From: a virus
Length of the DNA stretch: 64,000 bases
Reading direction: 5' to 3' (one strand)
IMG/VR virus record: IMGVR_UViG_3300027734_000048
Span: 52,567 to 116,566 of that record
Shown: in pieces, positions 2,899-60,781 of the stretch
Layout: every line of letters starts with the position of its first letter
Numbering within the stretch: the stretch's first letter is position 1
Position numbers and translations under genes: made by a program
Notes under the pieces: generated by a model
What the model was told of the DNA's origin: nothing
Databases searched by the model: none
Seen by the model: the letters and a program-made list of their open reading frames with translations, nothing else

Positions 2899-2948
2899 TT
2901 TTCCTCCGTTAGGTTGATAGTTAATTATACCATAGCAGGTATTATTTT

Positions 2949-3629: not shown

Positions 3630-3643
3630 CTATATAGTATACC

Positions 3644-3684
3644 AAAAACAAAATTGCCCCGCTCAAATTAATGAGAAGGGCAAT
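3644..3684 (-). terminator. probable intrinsic terminator after the major tail gene
   Basis: ATTGCCC...GGGCAAT stem followed on the minus strand by TTTTGTTTT. Confidence 0.55.
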
Positions 3685-3701
3685 AATGTTATTAAGTTGT
3701 A

Positions 3702-24667: not shown

Positions 24668-24721
24668 TTATTTCCTCCTTATGGGTGCTGCCCATATGTA
24701 TCTTATTATAACATCAATTTA

Positions 24722-37743: not shown

Positions 37744-37844
37744 GTATAGATTATATCACTACTTATTTACTTTAAAAGATTTACCATCTACACGTATTAC
37801 AGGCGGAAGTTCTGGTCTTGGTATACTGACTTTAACAACTGCCA

Positions 37845-41285: not shown

Positions 41286-41501
41286 TTAGTTGCACTCCTC
41301 ACATGGACACCATGGGAACTCTCGTTCCTGCTTAATGCGATTAGCAAGAGCCTGAACCTTTTGATAAGTTTCAGCACTAGCACCTCTAAAAGAGATGAGA
41401 TGACCATCAGCCATCATTTGTGCAGCGACTTGAATTCGCTCATCTAGTGTTAGATGTCCGTACTTAGCGGACTTGATTGTATTTTTATCTAGTGTATTCA
41501 T
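41286..41501 (-). CDS. hypothetical early protein
   Basis: 71 aa, AGAAAGG RBS, leftward TTGACT-17-TAGTAT promoter at 41690-41662. Confidence 0.6.
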   Translation of the reverse strand: MNTLDKNTIKSAKYGHLTLDERIQVAAQMMADGHLISFRGASAETYQKVQALANRIKQEREFPWCPCEECN

Positions 41502-41661: not shown

Positions 41662-41889
41662 ATACTATCACACAATACCCCAAAAGTCAAGTCCTAACAC
41701 GGCGTGTCGTATGTGATTTAGACCACAGTACATATAGGACAAATCGGACATTGTGACGTCGAGTTATCCACATGACGCACATCACATTCATAATTGAGCG
41801 TAAGTTATCCACATGACCTACATCACAATCCCAAATGTCCGTTTTATGCGTTTTGTACACCCATAAATGTCAGACCCCCCTGCTATACT
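41662..41889. promoter_or_regulatory. divergent early control region
   Basis: Leftward TTGACT-17-TAGTAT; GGCGTGTCG 41701; CRP-like sites 41712, 41771, 41812; TTATCCACA 41764, 41805; rightward TGTCAG-N10-TATACT 41868-41889. Confidence 0.8.
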
Positions 41890-41939
41890 TACAGTATAAA
41901 GAAAGTCAATCAAGGTGATTGAACTAGAAAGGAATTCAA

Positions 41940-42357
41940 ATGAATTCAAATGTAATAAACACAGTATGTGTGTCACATACCCCTAATAAGTCTGCTATCT
42001 CAGACCATAATGATGAGCAATTCACATTTTGTGAAGTTTGCGAAACTAACATTGAGCGTTGGTATAACGATACCGACCCTGAGCGTCTACCTATGTGGAC
42101 AGATTGGAAAGTGTCTAAATAATGAATAACATAATTTGTTGCTTTTGCGAAAACACTTATTCCGAAGGAACGCTATTCTGCGTTTCCTGTAATGAGTATA
42201 AAGGTCTAATGACTATAAAAGAATTCAATTCTTACTATGGAGAAAGGATTTATTCATAATGAATTTCTATGAAACATTCTTTGTAAGTGGTAACGCACTA
42301 TTCTGGTTCTCTATGATCTGTTTAATAAGTGGATTTTATTTATTCGTAAAAGAATAA
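41940..42357 (+). CDS. operon of three tiny early ORFs (41940-42122, 42122-42259, 42259-42357)
   Basis: AGAAAGG RBS, TAATG coupling; two ORFs carry CxxC, one is hydrophobic. Confidence 0.5.
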
Positions 42358-42378
42358 ATTTAATTCCCTGCAAAAAAT

Positions 42379-42489
42379 GGGACGTCGCCTGTGGATAACT
42401 TGTGGATAACTTGTGTGATATTTATCACAAAAATACTTTCCCGACACGCCCGAAAAAGGGGTCAAAATGTCAGTGGTAGGTGTTACACT
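42379..42489 (+). promoter_or_regulatory. early promoter module
   Basis: GGGACGTC 42379; TGTGGATAA 42390 and 42401; TGTGA-N6-TCACA 42414; CGACACGCC 42442; TGTCAG-N10-TACACT 42468-42489. Confidence 0.8.
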
Positions 42490-42539
42490 AATAGTATAAA
42501 GAAAGTTGAGAAAGGTTCTCAAACTAGAAAGGTCAGATA

Positions 42540-43512
42540 ATGACAAATAGAATATGGGAAAGTCGTAATGACTACCAAGTTGAAAGTGACGCACAGCGTC
42601 TTGGATATGTAGCCTGTTCAGCAGGTTGTGGCAGAGTAACCGCTTGGTCGCTCTGTGTAATGTGTGGCGGTAACTATACCGAACACAATCTACTAGGAAA
42701 GGTGGTCAAATAATGACTACACTAAATGAAACACTATTCAGCACAATCGTGCACGAATACCATAATGGTGGTGTTCAATCCTCTTATGGATTAGACGCTT
42801 ACACTAGAAAAGAATTGCTAAAATTCTTATTCAGTAGCAAAGGTTGCTATTGCATAAATTGTATCTCTAAGGAGTCTAAATAATGAGTCTCTCTCTTGCT
42901 AATAAATTGGCACAAGATAAATTCTTTCTGCCCCCTTCAAAATATATCAACCACAAAGTCGTGGAAATTATTTCGCTAAATGACGAAACTGAAACTGTGT
43001 CAGTTACACTTCAAAAATATGGAATTAGCCGTAGTGCTAATGCCGTAAAAGGTAATCTAATAACTATTGAATTACCTTATGCTGAATTCAAAAATCTAAA
43101 TGGTTGGGGAAATAATAAATGAGCACTTTCATAAATCTTGATTCCGTTTGCGGAAAATCATCTGCCTCTGTTGATGTCTATGACTTAGACCTCAATCCTC
43201 ATGGCGTTATCTGTTGCGATAACTGCCGTTCAATTTTAATCTGCCGTAAGGCATGGGACTTTTTATATAAGGAGAAAAACTAATGCGAGTATTTGAATTC
43301 ACTACATTTATTGACATCGTTGCTAATAACTATGATGAAGCAATAGATATCTTTGATCATAAATTAAAATATGGAAACATAGATAGAAGCACTGTCTATG
43401 TTGCAGACATTGAGGAGAAAGAATGAAAACACTTCAAGAAAAATTAGATTTAGTTTCTAAAGAATTAGAACCAATACTTTGGGAATTACTAAATGAAATT
43501 GAAAATGAATAA
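42540..43512 (+). CDS. operon of about 6 small early ORFs (includes 42883-43122)
   Basis: Chained TAATG/ATGA overlaps with AAGGAG/GAAAGG RBSs; several CxxC motifs; hairpin plus T-tract at 43524-43552. Confidence 0.5.
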
Positions 43513-43552
43513 ATAAAAAACAAGATCGCAGAAATAAAACTCTGCGATTTTT

Positions 43553-43758
43553 GAACGTCCCCGTGTGACGAGAATCACATCAAAAATGTCCGATTTGTGC
43601 GTGTCTAAACTTGACTTTTTGACATTTATCTGCTAGTATTCTACTATAACAATTAAATAATGACTAATAAGGTAATGAGCCTAGCAAATAAATGTGACCA
43701 GTATCACAGTGAGCCTAGCGAATAAATGCCCTAAAATGTCAGCCCCTAATGGTAAGAT
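43553..43758 (+). promoter_or_regulatory. early promoter module with tandem promoters
   Basis: TGTGA-N6-TCACA 43564 and 43693; TTGACT-17-TAGTAT 43611-43639; TGAGCCTAGC(A/G)AATAAATG x2; TGTCAG-N10-TAAGAT 43737-43758. Confidence 0.8.
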
Positions 43759-43791
43759 AGTCTTATCAACTAAACGAAAGGAAGTCTAAAA

Positions 43792-44556
43792 ATGACTTAC
43801 ACTATAACACTAGAAACCTTTTCAGGTTCTACAAAAAAAATCGCTATGCCCTCAAAAGGTGCGGTTGCTCAATTCATCTCAACTTATCCAACTCAATTAC
43901 CTGTTGGCGTATCTGTCAAGGTTGCTTGCGATACTCTCGGAATTAGTGGCACACTTCGTGGCACTCTTACACCCTCAAACTCAAACTAAGAATAGGAAAA
44001 CTAAAATAATGGTAAAAGTAAATCACTCTCTAAATTTCGTTACAGAATTTGACGAAACACATCCAATCGCTAAACAAGCACTTTCAATTCCTGAATCAGA
44101 TTTGATTGCTATGCTTGAAGGAATGCTAAAAGAATTATTAGTGCCTGCACTAACTTCAACCCTTGATGAAATAAATGCTCGTGGCACTTACGCAATTCTA
44201 AAGGTGGCAGAATAATGATGACCCGTAAAGACTATGTAGCAACTGCTGAAATTCTTAGCAATTACTTTGCTACCTCTGTTTTTGATGAGCAAGGAGAAAT
44301 GCTATTTGCTGATTTAGTAGATGAATTTTCTCTAATGTTTGAAACAGATAATCCAAGATTTGACGCAACTAAATTTGCTATTGCTTGCTATGAAAAATTG
44401 GAGATGGCTAAATGATTTTAGATACTGGAACACTTCTTGCAATCATAATTGCACTTGGTGGATCAATAACAGTTATGTGTTTATTCTGGAAACAGAACGC
44501 AGAACTAACAAGAGAAAACTATCGACTGCGTAATGAATTGCGTAAATCAAAACTAA
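43792..44556 (+). CDS. operon of four small early ORFs (43792-43989, 44009-44215, 44215-44415, 44412-44556)
   Basis: RBSs and coupled stop/start codons; MTRKDY...A......F..DNPRFD..KF motif in 44215-44415. Confidence 0.55.
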
Positions 44557-44602
44557 TCTAAAATAAAATCCTAAGCATGATTTAAAACTGCTCTCAATTT
44601 TT

Positions 44603-44816
44603 GGGACGTCGGGGTCGGGCGTGTCGTCCACAGACTTATCCACAGGACTATTTGTGTGAGATTTATCACACGGCTTGAGCGTCTCACTATTTGGATTTAC
44701 TGGCTAGTAAGTTGATAATTTGTGTCTAATAGGCTAGACTTACATAGTAAGAAAAAATAAATAGTTTAGCAATTACGGCGTGTCGTTTAGAAAATGTCAG
44801 TCTAATATGCTAAGAT
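44603..44816 (+). promoter_or_regulatory. early promoter module
   Basis: GGGACGTC 44603; GGCGTGTCG 44618 and 44777; TTATCCACA 44636; TGTGA-N6-TCACA 44655; TGTCAG-N10-TAAGAT 44795-44816. Confidence 0.8.
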
Positions 44817-44850
44817 ATTTATATCAACAAAAAAAGAAAGAGGTTGGCAA

Positions 44851-45956
44851 ATGTCAGCAAATGTCTATACAATAGAAAACCTACTTGTAGGAAAGTCCTA
44901 TCGCTCACGCACCCTAACAGGTGAAATTATCTCAGCAGAGATACACCCTAAAGCAGTTTGGTATGAAAATTGTGAAACTTATCTTGTAGAAATTGCACCT
45001 AATAGCGGAAGCAATACTTGGGGTCGCAGAACTTATCGCACAGTTGCAGTAAAGACAGGTGAATAAGTAATGGGATATGTAGAAATTTTTAGAATTGACG
45101 AAAATGGTGCAGGTTGGGTAGACTTAGAGTCTGCAACACCCGATGAACTATTTACTTTGGAAGTGGGCTTACTAAATGAAGGTGCATTATTCACAACGAA
45201 AGAGGCAGACTAATGGAATATAACTACTCTCTAACTATTGCCTATGACGGCGAATTGGTATCAACAACACGAAGTGCAGATATGCTTGAGATGGTATCTG
45301 AATGGAATAAGTGTGTAGACTTTGGAGACGCTAAAGAATACGCAACCTATAATCTGTCAGACCCTACTGGCAAGATGTATACTAAGACTTTCTACCGCAA
45401 CGGAAATGTGAGCGTGAAATAATATGGGTTCAGTTACAGCATTAGGAATTAAAGATGAAGTCTTAGACCTAGAGACTCAGATTCTCTATCACTTAAAGGG
45501 TAATCACTATCCCCCTGTCCCCGCAGAAATGGTTGCCCCTTGCATAGAGGCTATTGACGCATACTACGAAGAAGATTACAATCGAGAAATTTCTATGCCC
45601 AAAGTTGGAGACTTTCAGATTATGTATAAAAATTCCATTACGGCACCTGCTTGGGCTATCGTGGAACAGCACCACCTGCAATTCTGGCTGCCAGAGGAGG
45701 AATACTAAAAATGTCTGCTACAATAAAAACTATGCAATTAATTTACGCAGACCTACTTACTCCAGATCAGTTGATGGAGGAAGATTTGATTAAGGTAGAT
45801 GGTGAAATAGTCACTGTCATAGGAATTGAATCTAATCCTAGTGGTGATATTTATTATGTAGGTTATGAAGATGACTTTGGTGATAAAGATGTAGTTGAAT
45901 TTAACTACGATCAAAAAGTTGAACTTTATGTATTCCGTGAAGATTTAGAAGATTAA
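44851..45956 (+). CDS. operon of five small early ORFs (44851-45066, 45069-45213, 45213-45422, 45424-45708, 45711-45956)
   Basis: Tightly packed ORFs; HL.GNHYPPVP motif in 45424-45708; acidic products. Confidence 0.55.
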
Positions 45957-45974
45957 CTAAAACCCCTAAAAAAT

Positions 45975-46184
45975 GGGACGTCCCGCAGTCGGGCGTGTCG
46001 CATGTGAGATTAATCACAATTTATGATTTGACATTTTTACTTTATCTCTGCTAGTATTAAGTTATGAAGAAGTCATCTGAGGAATTACGCAAACTAATGG
46101 AATTACGCCGTAGTAATGCTGCTTCCGCTGTGCCTTCTAAAAAGGCTTACAATCGCAAGAAATGTCAGTCTGAACTGCTACAAT
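45975..46184 (+). promoter_or_regulatory. early promoter module
   Basis: GGGACGTCCC 45975; GGCGTGTCG 45992; TGTGA-N6-TCACA 46003; TTGACA-18-TAGTAT 46028-46057; TGTCAG-N10-TACAAT 46163-46184. Confidence 0.8.
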
Positions 46185-46375
46185 TAAAATATCAACAAAA
46201 AGGAGAATAGCCCCTATGGGAAATATCGCAGATGAATTCTATGATGAATACTACGCAACTGTCTGTCCGTCTTGTCAAGAAAATTCGGTAGACGCATATG
46301 AAGAAAAATGCACTCATTGCTTACTAGAAGAAATGTCCACTACTTATAACGAAGACATCGCTCTAGAAATGAGTC

Positions 46376-47107
46376 TTGGTCTTGACTACTAAACTACTTC
46401 GCTCTAAAGATAGGAAAGTTACTAATGCTGTATCCCCTAATGGCAAGACTGCAACAATTGCTAACACTTTCGGATTACCCGCAGGAAAAGAATACTCATG
46501 CCCTGGAGCAACCTCAGTGTGTGAGTCAGTCTGCTACGCAGGAAAGTTAGAGAAACTCTTCAAAGGCGTTAAGGTTAACCTATTACATAACTGGGACCTG
46601 CTCAAAGACGCAGATCTAGAAACTATGCAGGACCTGCTCACTGAAATGATAAATGATTTCAAGAAAGACTGTATCAAGAAAGACGCCCCTATGCTATTTC
46701 GCATTCACTGGGACGGAGATTTCTTTAATGATACATACACGCAAGCCTGGAAGAATGTCATCCTAAATAATACTGATATTCAATTCTGGGTATATACACG
46801 AGTACAATCTGCAGCACTTATGCTTAAGGATATTGCTAATCTATCTTTATATTATTCTACAGATAGCGAGAATAAAGAAACTGGAATTAGCCTTAAGACT
46901 GTTCATGGAATTAAGTTAGCATATCTTGCTAAGAATTTTGCAGACGGTCAAGCAGATATGAAAGCGTTAACTTCAAAACCTGGTGCTAAGTGTCCTGAAA
47001 ATGCAAAACGCATTCCACTTATTTCAACTACTGGTAGTGCTTGTGTTTCTTGCAGATTATGTGTATACTCTAAGAGTGATATTGTATTCAGTGCGAGTAA
47101 AAAATAA
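46376..47107 (+). CDS. phage Gp88-like Cys-cluster (radical-SAM-like) protein
   Basis: FGLPAG...SCPGAT..C...CYA, FRIH..GDF, FW.YTR, terminal C..C.LC. Confidence 0.65.
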   Translation: MVLTTKLLRSKDRKVTNAVSPNGKTATIANTFGLPAGKEYSCPGATSVCESVCYAGKLEKLFKGVKVNLLHNWDLLKDADLETMQDLLTEMINDFKKDCIKKDAPMLFRIHWDGDFFNDTYTQAWKNVILNNTDIQFWVYTRVQSAALMLKDIANLSLYYSTDSENKETGISLKTVHGIKLAYLAKNFADGQADMKALTSKPGAKCPENAKRIPLISTTGSACVSCRLCVYSKSDIVFSASKK

Positions 47108-47197
47108 ATGATGAGTTTATTTTATTTATTAATGATAACACTAGTAATGTGTGCACTCCTTGGTTCTAGTGGGTTCTAGCGGATCCCCTGGAATTTT

Positions 47198-47408
47198 GGG
47201 ACGTCCCGCCCACCCCCATTTGTCAAGTTACGACACGCACGATTTTTGTGAGGTTTATCACAATTTAATGTCCGATTTATGACATTTTCGATTTGTATTT
47301 ATGACATTTATTTGCTATTATTAAGTTATGAACAAAACAACACCCGTAGTCCAAGATGTGAGATTTTTCTTGGCTGACTTGCGAAATGTCAGTAGGAAAT
47401 GTTATACT
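47198..47408 (+). promoter_or_regulatory. early promoter module
   Basis: GGGACGTCCC 47198; CGACACGC 47231; TGTGA-N6-TCACA 47247; AATGTCCGATTT 47268; TGTCAG-N10-TATACT 47387-47408. Confidence 0.8.
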
Positions 47409-47441
47409 TGGATTATCAACCAAACAAAAGGAGAAACAAAA

Positions 47442-47606
47442 ATGGCAGTAGCAACAGCAACATACAAGGTAGGCGACCTCTACACAACACAGAAGTCAAA
47501 GGTTACAGGAACAATTCAGGAGATTACTCCACAGGCAAATGGAAATGTTCGTGTAAAGTTAGATGTAAATGGCACACCTCGTTACACAACTTGGACAGCA
47601 AAGTAA
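47442..47606 (+). CDS. small SH3-like beta-barrel protein
   Basis: MAVATATYKVGDLY...VTGTIQEI...VRVKLDV.G..RYTTW; AAGGAG RBS. Confidence 0.6.
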   Translation: MAVATATYKVGDLYTTQKSKVTGTIQEITPQANGNVRVKLDVNGTPRYTTWTAK

Positions 47607-47680
47607 TCTAATTACACTTTCCTGAGTATGAAATAAAACTGCTCAACACCCCCAACTAACAGAAAAGGAAACAGACCCAA

Positions 47681-48103
47681 ATGGCACAACGCAAAGCAAT
47701 CTCAGTAAAGATAGCAACAGAAAAGGTAATCAAGGCACTAGAAGGCTCACTCGCTAAACTAGAACTTGACTACACATCACAAGAAGCAAGCGAAGCAAAG
47801 TATCAGAAAGCACACGAAGCGTGGAAAAAGCAAATTGGTGAGTGGGCTATTGCCAACTTCTCAAAGGCTGAGAACCTTCGCACTAACTATCGTTCTTGGA
47901 ACAACAACCTCAATGTTGATTTTGACATTGTAGTAAAGCAAGGCGACTTCCCAACTGAACCTGAAAAGGATTTTGAGGTTATCCATCAGCACACTTATCG
48001 TGAGCAGAAAGAGGAAATTGCTAACGCAATTCGTATTCTCAAGATGACAGATGAGGAAACAGTAAGCACAAGCACTTACAATGCTATTGCTCGTTACCTA
48101 TAA
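47681..48103 (+). CDS. hypothetical early protein
   Basis: 140 aa, AAAGGA RBS, highly biased codon usage. Confidence 0.7.
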   Translation: MAQRKAISVKIATEKVIKALEGSLAKLELDYTSQEASEAKYQKAHEAWKKQIGEWAIANFSKAENLRTNYRSWNNNLNVDFDIVVKQGDFPTEPEKDFEVIHQHTYREQKEEIANAIRILKMTDEETVSTSTYNAIARYL

Positions 48104-48300
48104 CTAAATAACGAAACAGGGGCAGTTTAGAGAGTGTTCTCGCCCAATGTCGTAAGTAAGAACTCTCATTATTAGGGCAAGGGGTTCAGAGCCTCTCCTA
48201 TGTTCGCCAGGCTGATTAGGGCGACAATAGAAATACTATAGAGCAAGGTTCCTGCAGACCTAAAGAAGCAGACATCCTGAGCACGATCCAAAAAGGCTCC
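48104..48300 (+). ncRNA. candidate structured non-coding RNA (tandem pseudoknots and hairpins)
   Basis: About 200-nt gap with pairings GGGC/GCCC plus GAGAG..TTCT/AGAACTCTC, TAGGG/CCCTA, TCGCC/GGCGA, AGGTT/GACCT plus CTGC/GCAG, ATC/GAT plus GAGC/GCTC. Confidence 0.45.
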
Positions 48301-48374
48301 CCGCAAGGGTCTTTGACAAATGTCAGTGGCCACTAGTACAATTAATATAAACAAACTAACAGAAAGAGGCCCCC

Positions 48375-48815
48375 ATGGACCAGCAATACCCAACAATAAT
48401 CAATGCAACTGATGAATTTAATCAGAAGCAGGCTGCAGCACTACAAGAAGCAATTGAAAAAAAGGATGCATTAATTGTATCTCTTCAAGACCGTATGTCT
48501 GCAATGTCTCAGCGCTCATATGCTGATTCAGCGGAGCGTAACCGTATGGTTGAATCAATGCAAGAGTGGACTCTAGAAGAGTTAAGCAATGAAACAATTA
48601 CAGAATCACAGGCCCAAGAAATTGCAGAAATTATGGGCTTTGACCTTACCAAGGAAGTTGAAGTTGAGGTTACCGTTACGTACAACCTAACACTGCAGGT
48701 ACCTCATGATGAGGACGCCGAATCAATTGTTAACGATATCGATTTTGAATCTGTATCTTATAATTCTGATAACATCACATGGCTATCGGCCAGTGTTGAC
48801 AGAATTGATTTTTAG
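48375..48815 (+). CDS. hypothetical acidic early protein
   Basis: 146 aa; preceded by TGTCAG-N10-TACAAT 48321-48342 and TTGACA 48313. Confidence 0.7.
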   Translation: MDQQYPTIINATDEFNQKQAAALQEAIEKKDALIVSLQDRMSAMSQRSYADSAERNRMVESMQEWTLEELSNETITESQAQEIAEIMGFDLTKEVEVEVTVTYNLTLQVPHDEDAESIVNDIDFESVSYNSDNITWLSASVDRIDF

Positions 48816-48918
48816 TAGGGGGCTACTAAATATAGACATGTCGAATGTCTTTAAACTAGGCAAGGGACCTGAGCATTGTCCATGTAAACGGCTCACTTTA
48901 AATTCTTTCAAAATTTTT

Positions 48919-49046
48919 GACGTCCCGCCTGTGGATAACTTTGTCAAATCGACACGCCGTTACGACTATATGATCTTTCCCACAATGTCCGATTTATCCA
49001 TGTTTAACTATCTGGATTTGCATATGTCAGTCAGTCCTGCTATACT
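48919..49046 (+). promoter_or_regulatory. early promoter module
   Basis: GACGTCCC 48919; TGTGGATAA 48930; CGACACGCC 48950; AATGTCCGATTT 48984; TGTCAG-N10-TATACT 49025-49046. Confidence 0.8.
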
Positions 49047-49078
49047 TAAATTTCAACAAACAAAAAGGAGAAAAACTC

Positions 49079-50101
49079 ATGGCACATGACCTAGAAACAC
49101 AAAACGGCGTTGCATCTTTTGCATCATTCCGTGAACCCGCTTGGCATGGATTGGGTACCGTATTTACAGAAGAGAAAACAACTAGCGAGATGCTATCAGC
49201 AGCAAATCTCAATGGTTGGAATGTTCGTCTGGAAGATTTGGAAACCCCATCGCATCTATCAAGCGACAAGTCGTACCAATATGTATTGCGTACAAACCCT
49301 ACAGACAACACACAAACCGATATTCTTGGAATCGTTGGTGAGCGTTATGTCCCTCTACAGAATGAAGATTTATTCTCATTCGGTGATAACATTCTAGATG
49401 GTGGTGGTCGTTGGGAGACTGCTGGTGCTATCAAGGGTGGTCGTGTAGTATTCGGCTCTCTTGCTCTTGAGCGTGAGACTGTACTAGACCCAAATGGTGT
49501 TGCAGATAAGGTAAAGACTTATTTGCTCATTAACACATCACACGATGGCTCTATTGCAATTCAAGCATCTATTACACCTGTTCGTGTTGTATGTGCTAAC
49601 ACTCTTAACCTTGCTCTTGGTGGCGTAGGTCGTAAGAAGAATAAGGGCATCAAGCAATCATTCAAGATTCGCCACACGCAAACAGCAGAAGGCAAAATCC
49701 AAATTGCTCGTGAGACTCTTGGTCTTGCTAATGCTTACATGGACGAATTCGACATCATGGCTAAGGCAATGATTGAGAAGGAAGTCAATGCTAAATCGTT
49801 TAACGATATTATTCTCGCTGCTTATCCTAAGCCAGAAAAAGATGCTAAGGGTGCAATCAAGAAGTGGGAAAACAAGGTCGATATTATTAACGACATCTAC
49901 ACAGGTGAATTTAATGGTATGATTGCTGGCAATGCGTGGGGTGCGTTTAATGCACTTACAGAACGCCTTGACTGGTACCGCTCTGCTCGTGGTGGTTCTA
50001 ACGAATCTATCCTTGCATCAGCATCAGGATTTGACCCTGCAATTAACGCAGAGAAAAATCGTTTGCTAAAAGTTGTACAAAATGTAATGCAACTTTCATA
50101 A
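49079..50101 (+). CDS. DUF932/TIGR03299-family phage protein
   Basis: MAH.LE...REPAWHGLG, ETAG...GG..VF, YLL..TSHDGS, TPVRVVCANTL, RHT, G.AWG.FNA.TE..D. Confidence 0.8.
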   Translation: MAHDLETQNGVASFASFREPAWHGLGTVFTEEKTTSEMLSAANLNGWNVRLEDLETPSHLSSDKSYQYVLRTNPTDNTQTDILGIVGERYVPLQNEDLFSFGDNILDGGGRWETAGAIKGGRVVFGSLALERETVLDPNGVADKVKTYLLINTSHDGSIAIQASITPVRVVCANTLNLALGGVGRKKNKGIKQSFKIRHTQTAEGKIQIARETLGLANAYMDEFDIMAKAMIEKEVNAKSFNDIILAAYPKPEKDAKGAIKKWENKVDIINDIYTGEFNGMIAGNAWGAFNALTERLDWYRSARGGSNESILASASGFDPAINAEKNRLLKVVQNVMQLS

Positions 50102-50139
50102 CAAAAAAATCCTGAGCACGATTTAAAACTGCTCAACAT

Positions 50140-50213
50140 GGTCCGTTAGAATAGTTGGTTAGTTCGCTACCCTGTCACGGTAGAGGTCACGGGTTCAAGT
50201 CCCGTACGGATCG
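50140..50213 (+). tRNA. tRNA-Asp(GTC)
   Basis: Acceptor GGTCCGT/ACGGATC; anticodon arm CTACC-CTGTCAC-GGTAG; GGTTCAAGTCC T-arm. Confidence 0.9.
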
Positions 50214-50343
50214 CAAGTAATAAATATGCAAGTGAATGCATAAAAATGCGGGACGTCGGCTGTGACCTAAATCACATGACATTTTTAATAAAAAACAATT
50301 ACGAAGACTTGATTTTTTCCCCAGTCCATGAGATAATTAATAT

Positions 50344-53173
50344 ATGACCCAAACAACCAAACCATACACAATAGATGAACTAATGCAAAAAATATATGAT
50401 GAGAATTTTTCTCATTTTGATTTCATGGACAACATGAATGGTGGAGAATGTGATTGTAAATTACATATAGCAATGGATTTGATGTATGAATATGGGGGTG
50501 GATTATGTTAGGCTATAATAAAACAGATCTAGATGATATGACAGAAGGTTTGTCAGTGGTCTTGGATACAATTAAGGATAACCCATATGTTTACAATAGC
50601 GTATGGAAAGCAAGAGACCTACTTGAGGGTCTATGGGCAGAAGGGTACTTTGACTACAAATGAAAGTTAAAATCAGTCTTGAACAAACCATAGATATTGA
50701 TGAAGCAATGTCTAATGATATAGGGTTTGAACTCTATGGTCCCTCTGATATGAGCACGGAAGATAAAGTAGATTATCTAATGGCTAGATTTGCTGAAGAC
50801 ATAGATACTATGGTAAAGTATGATGAAGTGTTGGGCAACATCTCAGTAGAATATATAGAGGACTAATATGTGGACTAAGTATAGTTATGTTTGTACAGAC
50901 TGTGATTCTTTAATTGAGGTTACTACAAATACCGTGCCAGTTATGGATCCAGGCTGTGTATGTGGCTTAGATACCTTCGTTACTCGTACTGCCATGGAGC
51001 CAACGGTACAGCCTAATGTGACGAGTATCACACCCACAGGGCTTGTAAAAATCAACTCAAACCCCTATAATTAATATATGGACCTAAATACATTTAGAGA
51101 ATATATCAGACTACACGCCATATCCCTTGAACAGGATTTGGAAAACGAGGACGGTGCTGATAGCATTGTTCCTTACCTAGAAGGAGCCATTCATGTATCC
51201 AAACACTACTTGGAGGTTTTAAATGGATAAGATGACATTAGACCCATACCTAATGAAACAGGTAGACATGGGTATGGACGGAGCAGACATTCTGCACGGA
51301 CACCTAAAGACTATGATGTATGAGGCTGAACAACAGTTAGACCTATGCATTGAGGCAGAGGAGTACTCAGAGGAAGCCATGGACTCTATGGCTCGTACGG
51401 AGGCTTCAGGATACCTTGACGCACTATCTGAGGTTTATGCCTTGACCTATGCCATTGCTTTTGCCAAAGAAGATATTAAGAACCGTAAGGAGATTCTTGG
51501 TGAATAACTTTGTTGAGTTAGATTATGATGAATGGGTTGATACGTATAAGCCTATTCTTAATCATATAGAGACAAATGCTTCCTTTGACGGTATGATGTT
51601 TGAGACCTATGGCGATGAGGTAGAGTTTGTCAAGGCAACTGATGAGAATCGTATCTGGATGTATGGAGACGGAGACGACGGTGGGTCTTACATATGGTCT
51701 GGCTGGGGCTTTGTTAATAGAATAGGATACTTTATCACTGAGGTACCTTTTCCTGATAATACTACTATTCAAGTTCAAGTCTCACTACCTTGGTTTTTCT
51801 GTGAGAACTGTAACGAAGAAATGGAAGACCCTGATAATACTATTAGAGATGCCTTTGATGAGGCAGACTTGCAAAAATGCCCTGAGTGTGCTACCCTTGA
51901 AGAAATGACCCTAGTAGGATTGGAAAATAAAATGGATAAAGACCCAATAAATGAAGTAGAACAAGATGAGGAAGAAACCGTGTTTCACTCATTCACAGAA
52001 CGGACGGTACAAATCTAATGCCTAAGTACACAGTAACAGCCACACGAGAGACTTACTATGAGTTTGAGATTGAGGCAGAGGATGAACTATCTGCTGAAGA
52101 TCAAGTAAGACAATTAGAACTTGAAGGTGACATTGAAACATATGCCTATGACTGGTATCCTTTAGAAGTACAATCAATCGAAGAGGAAGAGGAAGAGTAA
52201 TGGGAGCACGAATTAATTACGTATTCAAAGACAGTGAGTCAGGGCCTATGGTTGTACTCTATAGCCACTGGGGTCAGACTGAATGGGAGCGGGACCTAGC
52301 AATGGCCCTGCAACACGCAAAACCTCGTCTAGGTGATTCATCATATGGTACCCGTATGATTATTAGTTATCTTATTCAAGATAGCATTCTGGAAGAGACA
52401 GGGTTTGGTATCTATGCTATCGACAATGATGGCTATGACCTAGGAGAGCAAACCGTGCTCATCGACTTCACTAACAATACTATTACTGATAATGTATCAG
52501 TAGACTTTGATAAATTTGTGGCTGCGTATTCGCCACTAACTGTCTAAGGAGTGGGTCCCTTAGACTAATGGGGATGGGGTAAGTCCTGCAGATTTGCCCC
52601 TCCCCTTCTTTTGCGGTACAATAGATAAGAGAGGAGTATCATGCCTAGAAGTAGTATATATGCCAAGCCCTCGCATAATAAAGAATCAAGAAAAGCAGAG
52701 CAAATAGCAAAACTACTCACGGAAGATTTCTCTATTGACCTAGAGCGAGTTGGCTATTATTTGGTTAGAAATCTACCTATGATTGTTTTTCATAGGTTTG
52801 ATGTCCTTGCCTTGACAGCACAGGAAGAGCATGGTAAACTTATGGAAGAGATGAAAACAGGAGGCCCATCATGGCGGTAGAGTTTGCAGATAAAGCAGGT
52901 ATCTTAGGAACACTCTGGATCGAGTTCAGAGCAGATGAAGATTTTTCAGATTTTATTGAATACAATGACCTTGGATTACCAATGGCATATATGATTGCAG
53001 AAGGTTTGGTTAAAGAACTTACAGCAACAGGTGAATCATTAATCGATGAAACATTTAATATGTTTTGTGAATTGCTAGAAATCACAGAAGAAGATTTTGA
53101 TGCTCTTGATGATATTAACCTTGGTTCGGTTTTGATGTTTGCTTATAATAAAAAGCAGAACACAGCAGAATAA
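50344..53173 (+). CDS. run of about 11 small acidic early ORFs (includes 50660-50866, 50868-51074, 51223-51507, 51500-52018, 52018-52200, 52200-52547, 52641-52880, 52871-53173)
   Basis: Contiguous, coupled ORFs with RBSs; no function assignable from sequence alone. Confidence 0.55.
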
Positions 53174-53686: not shown

Positions 53687-54424
53687 TACCTGATATACAA
53701 ACACTTTTATCCAAACAATTTTTTGATTTGTTTTGGATATTTTTTATATCTTTTCAAATAAAATATTACGATAATCAAACATTTTTCCCCAAATTTGGAT
53801 ATTTTTGTCATACAATTTTGGTACAAAATGAAGTTGACAAACATAAGGTTTGGGTATATAATGCCATGTTTGGATATATGGATTTGACAAAGGTTTGGAT
53901 ATGTGATAGGGGGTTTGGCCCGTAAGATTACGACGCCCTTCTTATAAATGCTCTATACTCCACTATCCTCCACTTTACTCCACTTCTAGAATGTCAAACA
54001 ACATAATCAGTAATATTTATTTGTGGATAAACCTGTGGATAACTAACATTTTTATGACCTATATCTGTTAACCTTCATGTGATACTATAGGGTTATGGAA
54101 TGCAAACACTACTATGAAATTGATCTAGATGGCAAGGTTTCTTGCTCTAATTGTCATGCTGCAGTAGATGAAATTGAAACAAAAAATAACGATTTCTGGT
54201 CATCACAAATGAGTTTTGAGGAATAGGTTTTATATCTTATACTAGGGGTTATTGGGTCTTTCTTGACTTACCCGCTCCAAATTGCTATACTAGATACATG
54301 AATAAAGAATATCGAATTAAAGACAGATACTGGGTACAGGTGGGCTATTCAAAAGGCTTTGGTCTAGGCTTTCGTATTGATCGCTATTCAACAAATATAG
54401 ATTTCCTATGGTTTTGGATTAGCA

Positions 54425-56489: not shown

Positions 56490-56604
56490 AATTTATACTA
56501 TTTTATTTAGAAAGACTTGTTAGGTCCATATTAAAGAAAAATAAAAAGAAAAAAGACTATACTTATTAGTCCAACATGTCTGTAGTATCTGGTATACTGT
56601 AATA

Positions 56605-56796
56605 ATGATTACAACACTATTAATTTTACTGACTTGGTATATTACAAAACTCTACTATACCCGAAGCATAAAATTTTATATGCCAGAACTACAAGAGCAC
56701 GGCCTGATCAATGCAAGATGCTCAAGATGTTCACAACACATCATCATTTCTGAAGAAGAAATGCGTACGCCATACTATTGCGTTGTGTGCAAGTAA
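56605..56796 (+). CDS. small membrane-anchored Zn-ribbon protein
   Basis: Hydrophobic N-terminus, CSRC...CVVC; leaderless promoter 56577-56598. Confidence 0.5.
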   Translation: MITTLLILLTWYITKLYYTRSIKFYMPELQEHGLINARCSRCSQHIIISEEEMRTPYYCVVCK

Positions 56797-60198: not shown

Positions 60199-60272
60199 GC
60201 ACCAGTAGCCAAGTTGGTTAAGGCCCCGAACTCATAATTCGGTTATCGTAGGTTCGAGTCCTACCTGGTGTA
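60199..60272 (+). tRNA. tRNA with CAT anticodon (Met or lysidine-type Ile)
   Basis: GCACCAG/CTGGTGT acceptor; CCGAA-CTCATAA-TTCGG; GGTTCGAGTCC. Confidence 0.88.
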
Positions 60273-60276
60273 CTAC

Positions 60277-60350
60277 ACATCTGTAACTCAGTTGGTTAGA
60301 GTACCTGCCTTATATGCAGAGAGCCGAAGGTTCAAGTCCTTCCAGATGTA
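60277..60350 (+). tRNA. tRNA-Ile(TAT)
   Basis: ACATCTG/CAGATGT; CTGC-CTTATAT-GCAG; GGTTCAAGTCC. Confidence 0.85.
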
Positions 60351-60372
60351 CGATACAATTAAATAGAGTATT

Positions 60373-60446
60373 GCGGATGTTGCATATTGGTAGTGCCTCT
60401 GCCTTCCAAGCAGAAGGGGTGAGTTCGATTCTCATCATCCGCTCCA
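60373..60446 (+). tRNA. tRNA-Gly(TCC)
   Basis: GCGGATG/CATCCGC-T-CCA; TCTGC-CTTCCAA-GCAGA. Confidence 0.92.
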
Positions 60447-60447
60447 A

Positions 60448-60520
60448 GTCCCCATGGTCTAGAGGCCTAGGACTCCACCCTTTCACGGTGGCAACACGGG
60501 TTCGAATCCCGTTGGGGATA
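60448..60520 (+). tRNA. tRNA-Glu(TTC)
   Basis: GTCCCCA/TGGGGAT; CCACC-CTTTCAC-GGTGG; GGTTCGAATCC. Confidence 0.92.
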
Positions 60521-60529
60521 CAATATCAT

Positions 60530-60603
60530 TCCTAGATCGTCTAACGGCAGGACAGGGGCCTTTGAAGCCCTTAATCGTGGTTCGAATCCATGTCTGGGAG
60601 CCA
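60530..60603 (+). tRNA. tRNA-Gln(TTG)
   Basis: TCCTAGA/TCTGGGA-G-CCA; GGGGC-CTTTGAA-GCCCT. Confidence 0.9.
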
Positions 60604-60604
60604 G

Positions 60605-60675
60605 GGGCCTAAAGCATTAAAGTGATGCTCAGGACTTTTAATCCTGAGAAGAAGGAGCATTACCTTCTAGGCCTA
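60605..60675 (+). tRNA. atypical tRNA-Lys(TTT)
   Basis: GGGCCTA/TAGGCCT; CAGGA-CTTTTAA-TCCTG; T-arm GAAGG-AGCATTA-CCTTC lacks TTC. Confidence 0.7.
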
Positions 60676-60679
60676 CTAC

Positions 60680-60752
60680 ACCTCTGTAGTTCAGTGGACA
60701 GAACGATGGACTTCTAAGCCATGCGTCGCAGGTTCGATTCCTGCCAGGGGTA
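60680..60752 (+). tRNA. tRNA-Arg(TCT)
   Basis: ACCTCTG/CAGGGGT; ATGG(A)-CTTCTAA-(G)CCAT; GGTTCGATTCC. Confidence 0.88.
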
Positions 60753-60781
60753 CAACATGGTATACTTTTAATGGAGGGCAT

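What the first reader, a model, noticed from the sequence alone, without database searches (positions are those of the whole stretch)
41868..50572. Early operons carry PafBC/RecA-NDp-type promoters (TGTCAG-N10-TAnnnT): possible hijack of the host ssDNA/DNA-damage activator
Seen: TGTCAG followed after exactly 10 nt by a -10 hexamer at 41868 (TATACT), 42468 (TACACT), 43737 (TAAGAT), 44795 (TAAGAT), 44852 (TACAAT), 46163 (TACAAT), 47387 (TATACT), 48321 (TACAAT), 49025 (TATACT) and 50551 (TACAAT), plus TGTCTG-N10-TATACT at 56577. All are on the + strand and most sit just before an RBS. The spacer sequence varies but its length does not. Established: the actinobacterial LexA-independent DNA-damage promoter (RecA-NDp, TGTC(G/A)G-N10-TAnnnT) is read by the WYL-domain activator PafBC, which uses this -26 element in place of -35 and is activated by nucleic-acid (ssDNA) binding. 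Inference: the phage wires its early genes to the host PafBC regulon, so entry of phage DNA or host damage (UV in surface water) would switch on the lytic programme. Several modules also have an ordinary TTGAC-17/18-TA promoter upstream (43611, 46028, 48313), suggesting two-tier control. I know of no description of this for a phage.
Basis: partly seen in the sequence, partly recalled or inferred. Interest (0 to 1): 0.88.

Follow-up and report, generated by a model that had tools for sequence, protein, structure and literature searches.

The report
Lake phage promoters shaped like PafBC promoters
An uncultured 116-kb lake phage of actinobacteria starts its block of small genes from about eight promoters built like the host promoters that PafBC, the single-stranded-DNA alarm activator, switches on, so it probably borrows that host switch, but nothing has been tested at the bench.

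Summary
TGTCAG-N10-TAnnnT occurs 10 times in the window, all on the + strand within 8.7 kb; shuffles give 1.09. Other spacings give 0-2, N16 gives 6. Eight sites sit 30-51 nt before an RBS and start codon. Two (44852, 50551) lie inside ORFs and are doubtful.

The genome is a 116,566-bp virus record with a WhiB gene and no WYL, sigma or MotA-type domain. In 80 related loci N10 gives 600 sites, against 6-176 for other spacings.

The layout equals the published PafBC motif tGTCgg(N10)tA(N3)T (PMC8635444).

New here: in a large order of small rhodopsin-bearing actinobacterial genomes, 81 of 81 carry paired WYL genes. In 25 of 30, recA is preceded by TGTCAG-N10-TAnnnT.

Against: the host is not proven. 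Three Streptomyces relatives lack the motif. RNA contigs do not fix start sites. A phage-made factor is not excluded.

Verdict: real promoters, probably PafBC-type (0.55). This scan found the same thing before on other DNA: 122 notes in at least 99 genomes. I found no paper on it.

The parts
41868..41889 (+). TGTCAG-N10-TATACT promoter, first of the block; TGC extended -10; serves genes 41940-42357
   Evidence: one RNA contig (X2) begins at 41909, 13 nt after the predicted start (weak)
42468..42489 (+). TGTCAGTG-N8-TACACT promoter; TGT extended -10; serves genes 42540-43512
   Evidence: one RNA contig (X3) begins at 42512 (weak)
43611..43647 (+). canonical -35/-10 promoters (TTGACT-17-TAGTAT and TTGACA-17-TACTAT), about 100 nt upstream of the next TGTCAG promoter
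   Evidence: RNA contigs of two runs begin at 43660 and 43661 (weak)
43737..43758 (+). TGTCAG-N10-TAAGAT promoter; TGG extended -10; serves genes 43792-44561
44795..44816 (+). TGTCAG-N10-TAAGAT promoter; TGC extended -10; serves genes 44851-45956
44852..44873 (+). doubtful site: overlaps the start codon of gene 44851; no TGn, no RBS after it
   Evidence: one RNA contig (X3) begins at 44882 (weak)
46028..46057 (+). canonical promoter TTGACA-18-TAGTAT with TG, upstream of the TGTCAG promoter at 46163
   Evidence: RNA contigs begin at 46096 and 46103 (weak)
46163..46184 (+). TGTCAG-N10-TACAAT promoter; TGC extended -10; serves 46216-47107, including the GP88-family gene
47387..47408 (+). TGTCAG-N10-TATACT promoter; TGT extended -10; serves 47442-48103
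   Evidence: against it, RNA contigs of two runs begin upstream, at 47343 and 47349
48313..48342 (+). promoter with both TTGACA (-35, 18-nt spacing) and TGTCAGTG (-26 position) before TACAAT; serves 48375-48815
49025..49046 (+). TGTCAG-N10-TATACT promoter; TGC extended -10; serves the DUF932 gene 49079-50101
   Evidence: RNA contigs begin at 49092 and 49108 (weak)
50551..50572 (+). doubtful site inside ORF 50505-50663; no TGn, no in-frame start after it
56577..56598 (+). variant TGTCTG-N10-TATACT with TGG extended -10; ATG of ORF 56605-56796 lies 6 nt after the -10, so the transcript may be leaderless
41868..50101 (+). block of about 30 small + strand genes driven by these promoters; none of the 40 ORFs of 39-57 kb searched has a named function (families hit: GP88, DUF932, a sulfotransferase domain)

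Best explanation
About eight of the ten sites are real promoters of the phage's small-gene block. Each has a -10 hexamer, usually with a TGn extension. In place of a -35 box each has TGTCAG at -28 to -23.

This is the layout of actinobacterial PafBC-dependent promoters (RecA-NDp, recA P1 type). In that system PafB reads the GTC of the -26 element, PafC touches region 4 of SigA, and the complex is active only when PafBC has bound single-stranded DNA ('sigma adaptation').

Most likely the host RNA polymerase with SigA, adapted by host PafBC, transcribes this block. Expression would then follow the appearance of single-stranded DNA in the infected or damaged cell.

Shown: the motif, its strict spacing and orientation, its place before genes, its conservation in the phage family, and the same box plus pafBC-like genes in a candidate host order.

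Inferred: that PafBC binds the sites, who the host is, and when the block is expressed.
For: 1. Enrichment and spacing. The window has 10 sites against 1.09 expected, only at N10, all on one strand within 8.7 kb.

2. Position. Eight sites lie 30-51 nt before an RBS and start codon.

3. Family conservation. In 80 related loci (1.34 Mb), N10 gives 600 + strand sites against 6-176 at other spacings, and 79 of 80 loci have at least one. Among nGTCnn-N7-TGn-TAnnnT sites, 390 of 437 are TGTCAG.

4. Published motif. tGTCgg(N10)tA(N3)T, -26 element at -23 to -28, GTC read by R46/R50 of PafB (PMC8635444 passages).

5. No factor of its own found. The phage has no WYL, sigma region 2 or 4, or MotA C-terminal domain. 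40 ORFs of 39-57 kb gave no DNA-binding family in Pfam, and 10 conserved ones gave none in PHROGs.

6. Candidate hosts. In a large order of small rhodopsin-bearing genomes, 81 of 81 have WYL genes, seen as adjacent pairs. One pair is PafC (HTH_PafC 104.7 bits) next to a PafB-like protein. That protein aligns with M. smegmatis PafB (7p5x, 115 bits) and keeps the equivalents of K5, R8, E42, A43, R46, R50, K52 and R56.

7. Same box at recA. 25 of 30 recA upstream regions of that order carry TGTCAG-N10-TAnnnT; 21 of the 25 have TGn by my reading. A LexA-like box follows the -10.

8. Habitat. The phage block is present in four lake-water RNA libraries.

9. Other host-type boxes. The same spacers are rich in them: TGTGA-N6-TCACA 8 against 0.14 expected, TTATCCACA 9 against 0.85.
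Against: - The host is not identified. tRNA identity gives no link: 88-90% in the candidate order, up to 94% elsewhere in the phylum. The WhiB search found only phage contigs mis-binned into MAGs. Phage G+C is 36%, against 44-52% around recA in the candidate order.
- PafBC is not universal in small actinobacterial genomes: 3 of 10 sampled had WYL.
- The closest cultured relatives lack the motif. Streptomyces phages Karp, LukeCage and TunaTartare have 1, 1 and 2 sites against 1, 1 and 5 for the control.
- All six letters of TGTCAG are more than 95% fixed in the phage family. In M. smegmatis only GTC is strongly conserved. After TGTCAG the phage family prefers T then C, whereas the candidate hosts prefer TG.
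- A TGn extended -10 may work without any activator. The phage's - strand genes use TGGTATAAT-type promoters with no upstream box.
- RNA contigs of two runs begin upstream of the 47387 promoter, and others begin after the canonical promoters at 43619 and 46028.
A factor inherited within the phage lineage therefore stays possible.
Confidence: 0.55

Rival explanations
1. A phage-made activator reads TGTCAG and recruits host RNA polymerase, as MotA with AsiA does at T4 middle promoters (box at -30 plus a -10). The likeness to PafBC promoters would then be convergence.
For: - The layout, an upstream box with fixed spacing to a -10 and no -35, is also that of T4 middle promoters. PMC8635444 itself draws this comparison.
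- Canonical promoters lie upstream of two modules, as early promoters do in T4.
- Arrays occur only in relatives of this phage in the sample scanned, and the Streptomyces relatives lack them.
- The whole hexamer is fixed, more than in the mycobacterial regulon.
- Most block genes have no known function.
Against: - No MotA C-terminal, WYL or sigma domain in the genome.
- No DNA-binding family in 40 ORFs.
- The one HTH-like neighbour, as judged by eye (41286-41501, - strand), is found in only 10 of 80 family loci.
- The first two promoters of the block have no canonical promoter before them.
- Hexamer, spacing and TGn match the recA promoter of candidate hosts letter for letter, which chance convergence makes unlikely.
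Confidence: 0.2
2. The promoters are self-sufficient extended -10 promoters, and TGTCAG is an operator for a repressor, from phage or host, that shuts the block off at a set time.
For: - Seven of the eight strong sites have TGn plus a fair -10.
- The phage's other genes run from TGGTATAAT-type promoters without any upstream element.
- One-orientation asymmetric repressor sites are known from cluster A mycobacteriophages (recalled, not checked in a call).
Against: - A repressor site need not keep one exact spacing to the -10. Here N10 gives 600 sites, against 14 at N9 and 10 at N11.
- No repressor candidate is conserved in the family.
Confidence: 0.1
3. Another host factor that adapts SigA, not PafBC, reads the box.
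For: PMC8635444 proposes that sigma adaptation may be widespread in actinobacteria, because many promoters lack a -35.
Against: The box, its spacing and its presence at recA next to a LexA-like box in candidate hosts are those of the PafBC regulon.
Confidence: 0.07
4. The sites act mainly as a sponge that draws PafBC away from host promoters, blunting the host's damage and defence response, rather than as the phage's own switch.
For: - About ten sites per genome copy would outnumber the host's. The five host-candidate genomes have 5-14 exact sites each.
- In one of them, 8 of 11 sites lie in an island with methylase, protease and TPR genes.
Against: The sites sit at promoter distance before genes, with -10 boxes and RBS. 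Transcription is therefore the simpler reading, and the two are not exclusive.
Confidence: 0.05

Closest known systems
PafBC-dependent promoters (RecA-NDp, recA P1 type) of Mycobacterium and other Actinobacteria, read by sigma adaptation
   Same: An upstream element containing GTC at -28 to -23, exactly 10 nt before TAnnnT, with no -35. Candidate host genomes use the same TGTCAG hexamer at recA.
   Different: - Found on a phage, as an array of about eight per genome in one orientation.
- All six letters are fixed, not just GTC.
- A TGn extended -10 and an A-rich stretch upstream are usual.
- The letters after the hexamer differ from the host preference TG.
- Dependence on PafBC is untested.
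T4 middle promoters (MotA box at -30 plus -10; MotA/AsiA sigma appropriation)
   Same: A phage promoter class with an upstream box in place of -35, lying downstream of ordinary promoters in the same region (comparison in PMC8635444).
   Different: No MotA C-terminal domain in this phage. The box sequence differs. Here the likely reader is a host protein.
Phage control through the host SOS system (LexA or RecA-triggered repressor cleavage)
   Same: Ties phage gene expression to host DNA damage or single-stranded DNA (recalled general knowledge).
   Different: That route works by removing a repressor, mostly in temperate phages. Here a host activator would be used directly at many promoters of an apparently lytic phage. 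No integrase or repressor was looked for systematically.
WYL-domain regulators that control both DNA-damage and anti-phage genes (BrxR, CapW, and the Moraxellaceae activator)
   Same: A host WYL sensor of single-stranded DNA linked to phage infection (search listings and abstracts only).
   Different: Those regulate host defence genes. Here the phage's own genes carry the target sites.

Membership tests
PafBC-dependent (RecA-NDp) promoter class | Upstream element tGTCgg with invariant GTC at -28 to -23 | tested here: met
   TGTCAG at that position in 10 window sites. In the family, 390 of 437 nGTCnn sites with an extended -10 are TGTCAG. Definition from PMC8635444.
PafBC-dependent (RecA-NDp) promoter class | Exactly 10 nt between the element and a TAnnnT -10 | tested here: met
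   In the window N10 = 10, against 0-2 elsewhere and 6 at N16. In the family 600 at N10, against 14 at N9 and 10 at N11.
PafBC-dependent (RecA-NDp) promoter class | No canonical -35 element | tested here: met
   Positions -8 to -3 before TGTCAG carry little information in 460 family sites. Exception: 48321 has TTGACA at 18-nt spacing.
PafBC-dependent (RecA-NDp) promoter class | The host encodes PafB and PafC | tested here: inconclusive
   The host is unknown. In a candidate order, 81 of 81 genomes have WYL genes in adjacent pairs, and one pair was confirmed as PafB-like plus PafC. Only 3 of 10 other small actinobacterial genomes had WYL.
PafBC-dependent (RecA-NDp) promoter class | The same box drives recA or repair genes in the host | tested here: inconclusive
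   25 of 30 recA upstream regions of the candidate order have TGTCAG-N10-TAnnnT. Whether that order is the host is not shown.
PafBC-dependent (RecA-NDp) promoter class | Transcription starts 6-8 nt after the -10 | tested here: inconclusive
   Only assembled RNA contigs were available. Some begin 13-16 nt after the predicted start (41909, 42512); others begin upstream of the box (47343, 47349).
PafBC-dependent (RecA-NDp) promoter class | Activity depends on PafBC bound to single-stranded DNA | not testable with these tools
   Needs a reporter or in vitro transcription.
T4-type middle promoter with a phage-made activator | Phage encodes a MotA-like DNA-binding activator | tested here: not met
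   No MotCF domain at E <= 1 in the whole genome. No DNA-binding family in 40 ORFs. An unrecognisable factor is not excluded. The AsiA and MotA N-terminal families were not searched.

The most novel reading that the evidence does not exclude
A whole family of abundant lake phages has wired a gene block to the host's single-stranded-DNA alarm, PafBC, through sigma adaptation. This would be the first phage promoter class that depends on a host WYL activator. In a candidate host the same box also stands before a cluster of methylase, protease and TPR genes. The phage may therefore ride the very alarm that the cell raises against infection, or soak it up.
Probability: 0.4. Interest if true: 0.8.

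Novelty: new variant of a known kind. Interest (0 to 1): 0.66.

Why it matters
PafBC promoters are known only from bacterial chromosomes, as the LexA-independent arm of the actinobacterial DNA-damage response.

If phages of the most abundant lake actinobacteria use them, three things follow:
- Phage gene timing would be set by a host sensor of single-stranded DNA. That would be a new way for a lytic phage to time or condition its programme.
- Sunlight damage and infection would be coupled in surface waters.
- The phage sites would give a set of natural, strong PafBC targets for studying sigma adaptation.

It is directly testable with reporters in M. smegmatis wild type and pafBC deletion strains, and with the published RNAP-PafBC pull-down.

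Tried and rejected
Host hunt that led nowhere:
- Scanning genome contigs with the phage WhiB found only four loci. Their G+C is 33-39%; two of them sit in a MAG whose own contigs have 70-72% G+C. I read them as phage contigs mis-binned into MAGs.
- The tRNA array against 401 genomes of the phylum and 41 of the candidate order gave 82-96% identity everywhere, so no host signal.
- WhiB against 401 genomes at E <= 1e-12 matched only the mis-binned contigs. My threshold was too strict to be informative.
- The protein atlas returned only viral WhiB clusters.
- Guessing small genomes from the phylum sample (G008, G016, G022, G023, G031, G049, G050, G056, G071, G316, G328, G383) reached only small orders or high-G+C genomes. 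Still, the five-genome low-G+C order of G023 has paired WYL genes in G023, and TGTCG(G/C)-N10-TAT(A/T)AT before recA in 3 of 4 genomes.

RNA. Four lake metatranscriptome runs hold the block, but only as assembled contigs. No table of starts was given, so start sites stay open. Parts without cover are not interpreted.

Megablast of 10 kb of the block against cultured phages found no match.

Chance was rejected by the shuffles and the spacing scan.

A phage sigma factor was rejected: no region 2 or region 4 domain.

P0002 (41286-41501, - strand) was considered as a regulator. It is present in only 10 of 80 family loci.

A weak Pfam hit of ORF 47681-48103 to 'Anthrax-tox_M' (16.2 bits, cut-off 25) and one to CdvA are below threshold. 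I take them as chance.

Papers:
- PMC8635444, PMC6789036, PMC12848934 and PMC11804915 were read as found passages only.
- All other papers named were seen as search listings and abstracts.
- Rafique et al. 2025 (pafBC and mycobacteriophage resistance) is known to me only by its title, in the reference list of PMC12848934, and is not held. It may bear on this claim.
- Supplements, such as PafBC regulon tables, were not opened.
- 'Not in print' rests on searches of the held library only.

Full report
WHAT IS THERE

All sites are on the + strand, between 41868 and 50572. A hundred dinucleotide-preserving shuffles give 1.09 on average and never more than 4. Allowing TGTCRG adds nothing.

A scan of spacings from 4 to 21 nt gives 10 sites at N10, 6 at N16, and 0-2 at every other spacing. 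The - strand has 0-1 throughout. The N16 peak comes from a second TAnnnT six bases on in four of the same sites.

The window is bases 52567-116566 of a 116,566-bp IMG/VR virus record that CheckV rates complete. The rest of the genome adds one site, on the - strand, against one hit for a backwards control. One-mismatch variants show no strand bias (12 and 10).

ANATOMY

Eight sites are alike: 41868, 42468, 43737, 44795, 46163, 47387, 48321 and 49025. Each has an A-rich stretch just before TGTCAG. Seven of the eight have TGn before the -10. Each is followed by an RBS and start codon 30-51 nt after the -10.

Two sites are doubtful. 44852 overlaps the start codon of its gene, and 50551 lies inside an ORF. 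Neither has TGn or a following start.

The 56577 variant has its ATG 6 nt after the -10, which would give a leaderless message.

Ordinary -35/-10 promoters stand about 100-130 nt upstream of two of the sites (43611/43619 and 46028). The 'ordinary' promoter at 48313 shares its -10 with the TGTCAG site at 48321, so that is one promoter with both elements.

The long - strand of the genome carries the structural and nucleotide-metabolism genes. It uses TGGTATAAT-type extended -10 promoters with no upstream box.

THE PHAGE

- The major capsid protein is about 40% identical to those of large Streptomyces phages of the Stanwilliamsviridae.
- There is a WhiB gene scoring 43.5 bits.
- G+C is 35.8%.
- Four lake-water RNA libraries from four studies hold the block.

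So this is an actinophage of lakes.

It has no WYL domain, no sigma region 2 or 4, and no MotA C-terminal domain. Forty ORFs of 39-57 kb gave only GP88, DUF932 and a sulfotransferase domain in Pfam. Ten conserved ones gave only two unknown-function families in PHROGs.

THE FAMILY

A search with the GP88-family protein found 225 relatives in IMG/VR, of which 80 loci were kept. In these 1.34 Mb the N10 pattern occurs 600 times on the gene strand. Other spacings give 6-176, and N10 on the opposite strand gives 53. Of the 80 loci, 79 have at least one site.

The consensus from 460 distinct sites is A-W-W-TGTCAG-t-S-S-c-n-n-m-T-G-n-TAnAMT. There is little information where a -35 would lie.

With an extended -10 required, 390 of 437 nGTCnn sites are TGTCAG. 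Single mismatches spread over all six positions: 8, 12, 6, 5, 15 and 18.

The genes behind the promoters vary far more than the promoters do.

COMPARISON WITH THE KNOWN CLASS

From the passages I read, Müller et al. 2021 (PMC8635444) state the following:
- The PafBC motif is tGTCgg(N10)tA(N3)T.
- The upstream element lies at -23 to -28 and resembles no -35.
- PafB reads the GTC triplet through R46 and R50.
- PafC touches SigA region 4.
- A 12-nt single-stranded DNA strengthens complex formation.

The phage sites fit this geometry exactly.

A sample of 35 recA upstream regions across the phylum shows an nGTCnn-N10-TAnnnT box in 21, of which six are TGTCAG.

I looked for rhodopsin genes in 401 genomes of the class and found 50, many in 1.3-1.5 Mb genomes. 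The order of one of these, G528, is large. Its names are not told; I infer Nanopelagicales from size, rhodopsin and number.

Results for that order:
- All 81 sampled genomes have WYL genes, listed as adjacent pairs about 940 nt apart.
- In G806 the pair is a PafC (HTH_PafC 104.7 bits, WYL, WCX) preceded by a PafB-like protein.
- That PafB-like protein aligns over its length with M. smegmatis PafB of entry 7p5x (115 bits). It keeps the residues the paper names as DNA contacts.
- All 30 recA upstream regions read have a GTC box at N10.
- 25 of them are TGTCAG, mostly TTGTCAGTGGCGCCTGCTACCTT, with a LexA-like box directly after the -10.

In five complete genomes of the order the exact pattern is only mildly enriched: 46 sites against 32 for the control. 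However, 21 of the 46 read TGTCAGTG.

WHAT SPEAKS AGAINST THE PafBC READING

- The host is not shown.
- Phage G+C is 8-16 points below that around recA in the candidate order.
- Three Streptomyces relatives have no enrichment.
- The phage hexamer is stricter than the mycobacterial consensus, and the two letters after it differ from the host preference.
- An extended -10 might not need an activator.
- RNA contigs of two runs begin upstream of the 47387 site. Others begin just after the canonical promoters at 43619 and 46028. Two begin 13-16 nt after the predicted starts of the first two TGTCAG promoters. Contigs cannot settle this.
The same pattern sent by mistake with N11 found no arrays in 120 loci. 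The array is thus a trait of one broad phage lineage, which a phage-made factor could also explain.

VERDICT

The sites are real promoters; I put that at about 0.9.

That host PafBC reads them is the best-supported mechanism, at 0.55. It rests on an exact match of hexamer, spacing and -10 context to the recA promoter of PafBC-bearing lake actinobacteria, and on the lack of any recognisable phage factor.

Rivals:
- a phage-made activator (0.2);
- a repressor site on self-sufficient promoters (0.1);
- another host adaptor (0.07);
- a PafBC sponge (0.05, and not exclusive of the main reading).

'Early' timing and the UV trigger are conjecture. If PafBC needs single-stranded DNA, the block may fire only once replication or damage begins, with the canonical promoters firing first.

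This scan noted the same thing before on other DNA, in 122 notes from at least 99 genomes, and earlier follow-ups reached the same reading. I found no paper that describes it in the held library. One paper on pafBC and mycobacteriophage resistance could not be read.

Noticed in passing
window 41760-41815, 42390-42430, 43560-43710, 44636-44670, 46003-46018, 47247-47262, 50261-50276, 51017-51032, 54022-54042: The spacers of the small-gene block are rich in boxes of host-regulator type. TGTGA-N6-TCACA (CRP/GlxR-like) occurs 8 times against 0.14 expected. TTATCCACA (DnaA-box-like) occurs 9 times against 0.85. Several lie 40-160 nt upstream of TGTCAG promoters. GGCGTGTCG and ATGTCCGATTT-like repeats are also visible by eye.
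   Followed up: partly
The seven read stand just before a gene. Those genes include a trypsin-like protease, two TPR proteins, a type II C5 methyltransferase and an OGG-like glycosylase. Similar clusters of sites appear in G468, G546 and G609. It may be a PafBC-controlled defence-like island.
   Followed up: partly
recA upstream regions of the order of G528 (L164-L193): 18 of 30 have a second box (CGTCGG, CGTCAG or CGTCGT, then N10, then TACCTT) about 110 nt nearer to recA than the TGTCAG box. It may be a second GTC-type promoter.
   Followed up: no
whole genome, - strand intergenic gaps, e.g. window 2899-2948, 3630-3701, 24668-24721, 37744-37844: Structural and other - strand genes are preceded by TGGTATAAT or TGnTATACT extended -10 boxes with no -35 and no TGTCAG. 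This is a second promoter class in the same phage.
   Followed up: partly
window 56577-56607: The TGTCTG variant promoter has the ATG of ORF 56605-56796 only 6 nt after its -10, which suggests a leaderless message.
   Followed up: no
window 48167 joined to 41865 in RNA contigs of runs X3 and X4: Contigs join the end of gene 47681-48103, through a short G+C hairpin, to a copy of the 41868-type promoter. Related strains seem to carry the promoter-led cassettes in another order.
   Followed up: no
L091, L092 (in G001), L093, L094: Four loci (33-39% G+C) with a close WhiB homologue (59-76% identical) sit in MAGs labelled Acidimicrobiaceae (own contigs 70-72% G+C), Saccharibacteria and Chitinophaga; I read them as phage contigs and likely binning errors.
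   Followed up: partly
window 50140-50214 and 60199-60753: Eight tRNA genes: Asp alone, and an array of Met, Ile, Gly, Glu, Gln, Lys and Arg.
   Followed up: partly
window 41940-43283, 46216-46392, 50344-50511: Many of the small block proteins carry paired CxxC motifs, which suggests zinc ribbons. None matches a family.
   Followed up: no
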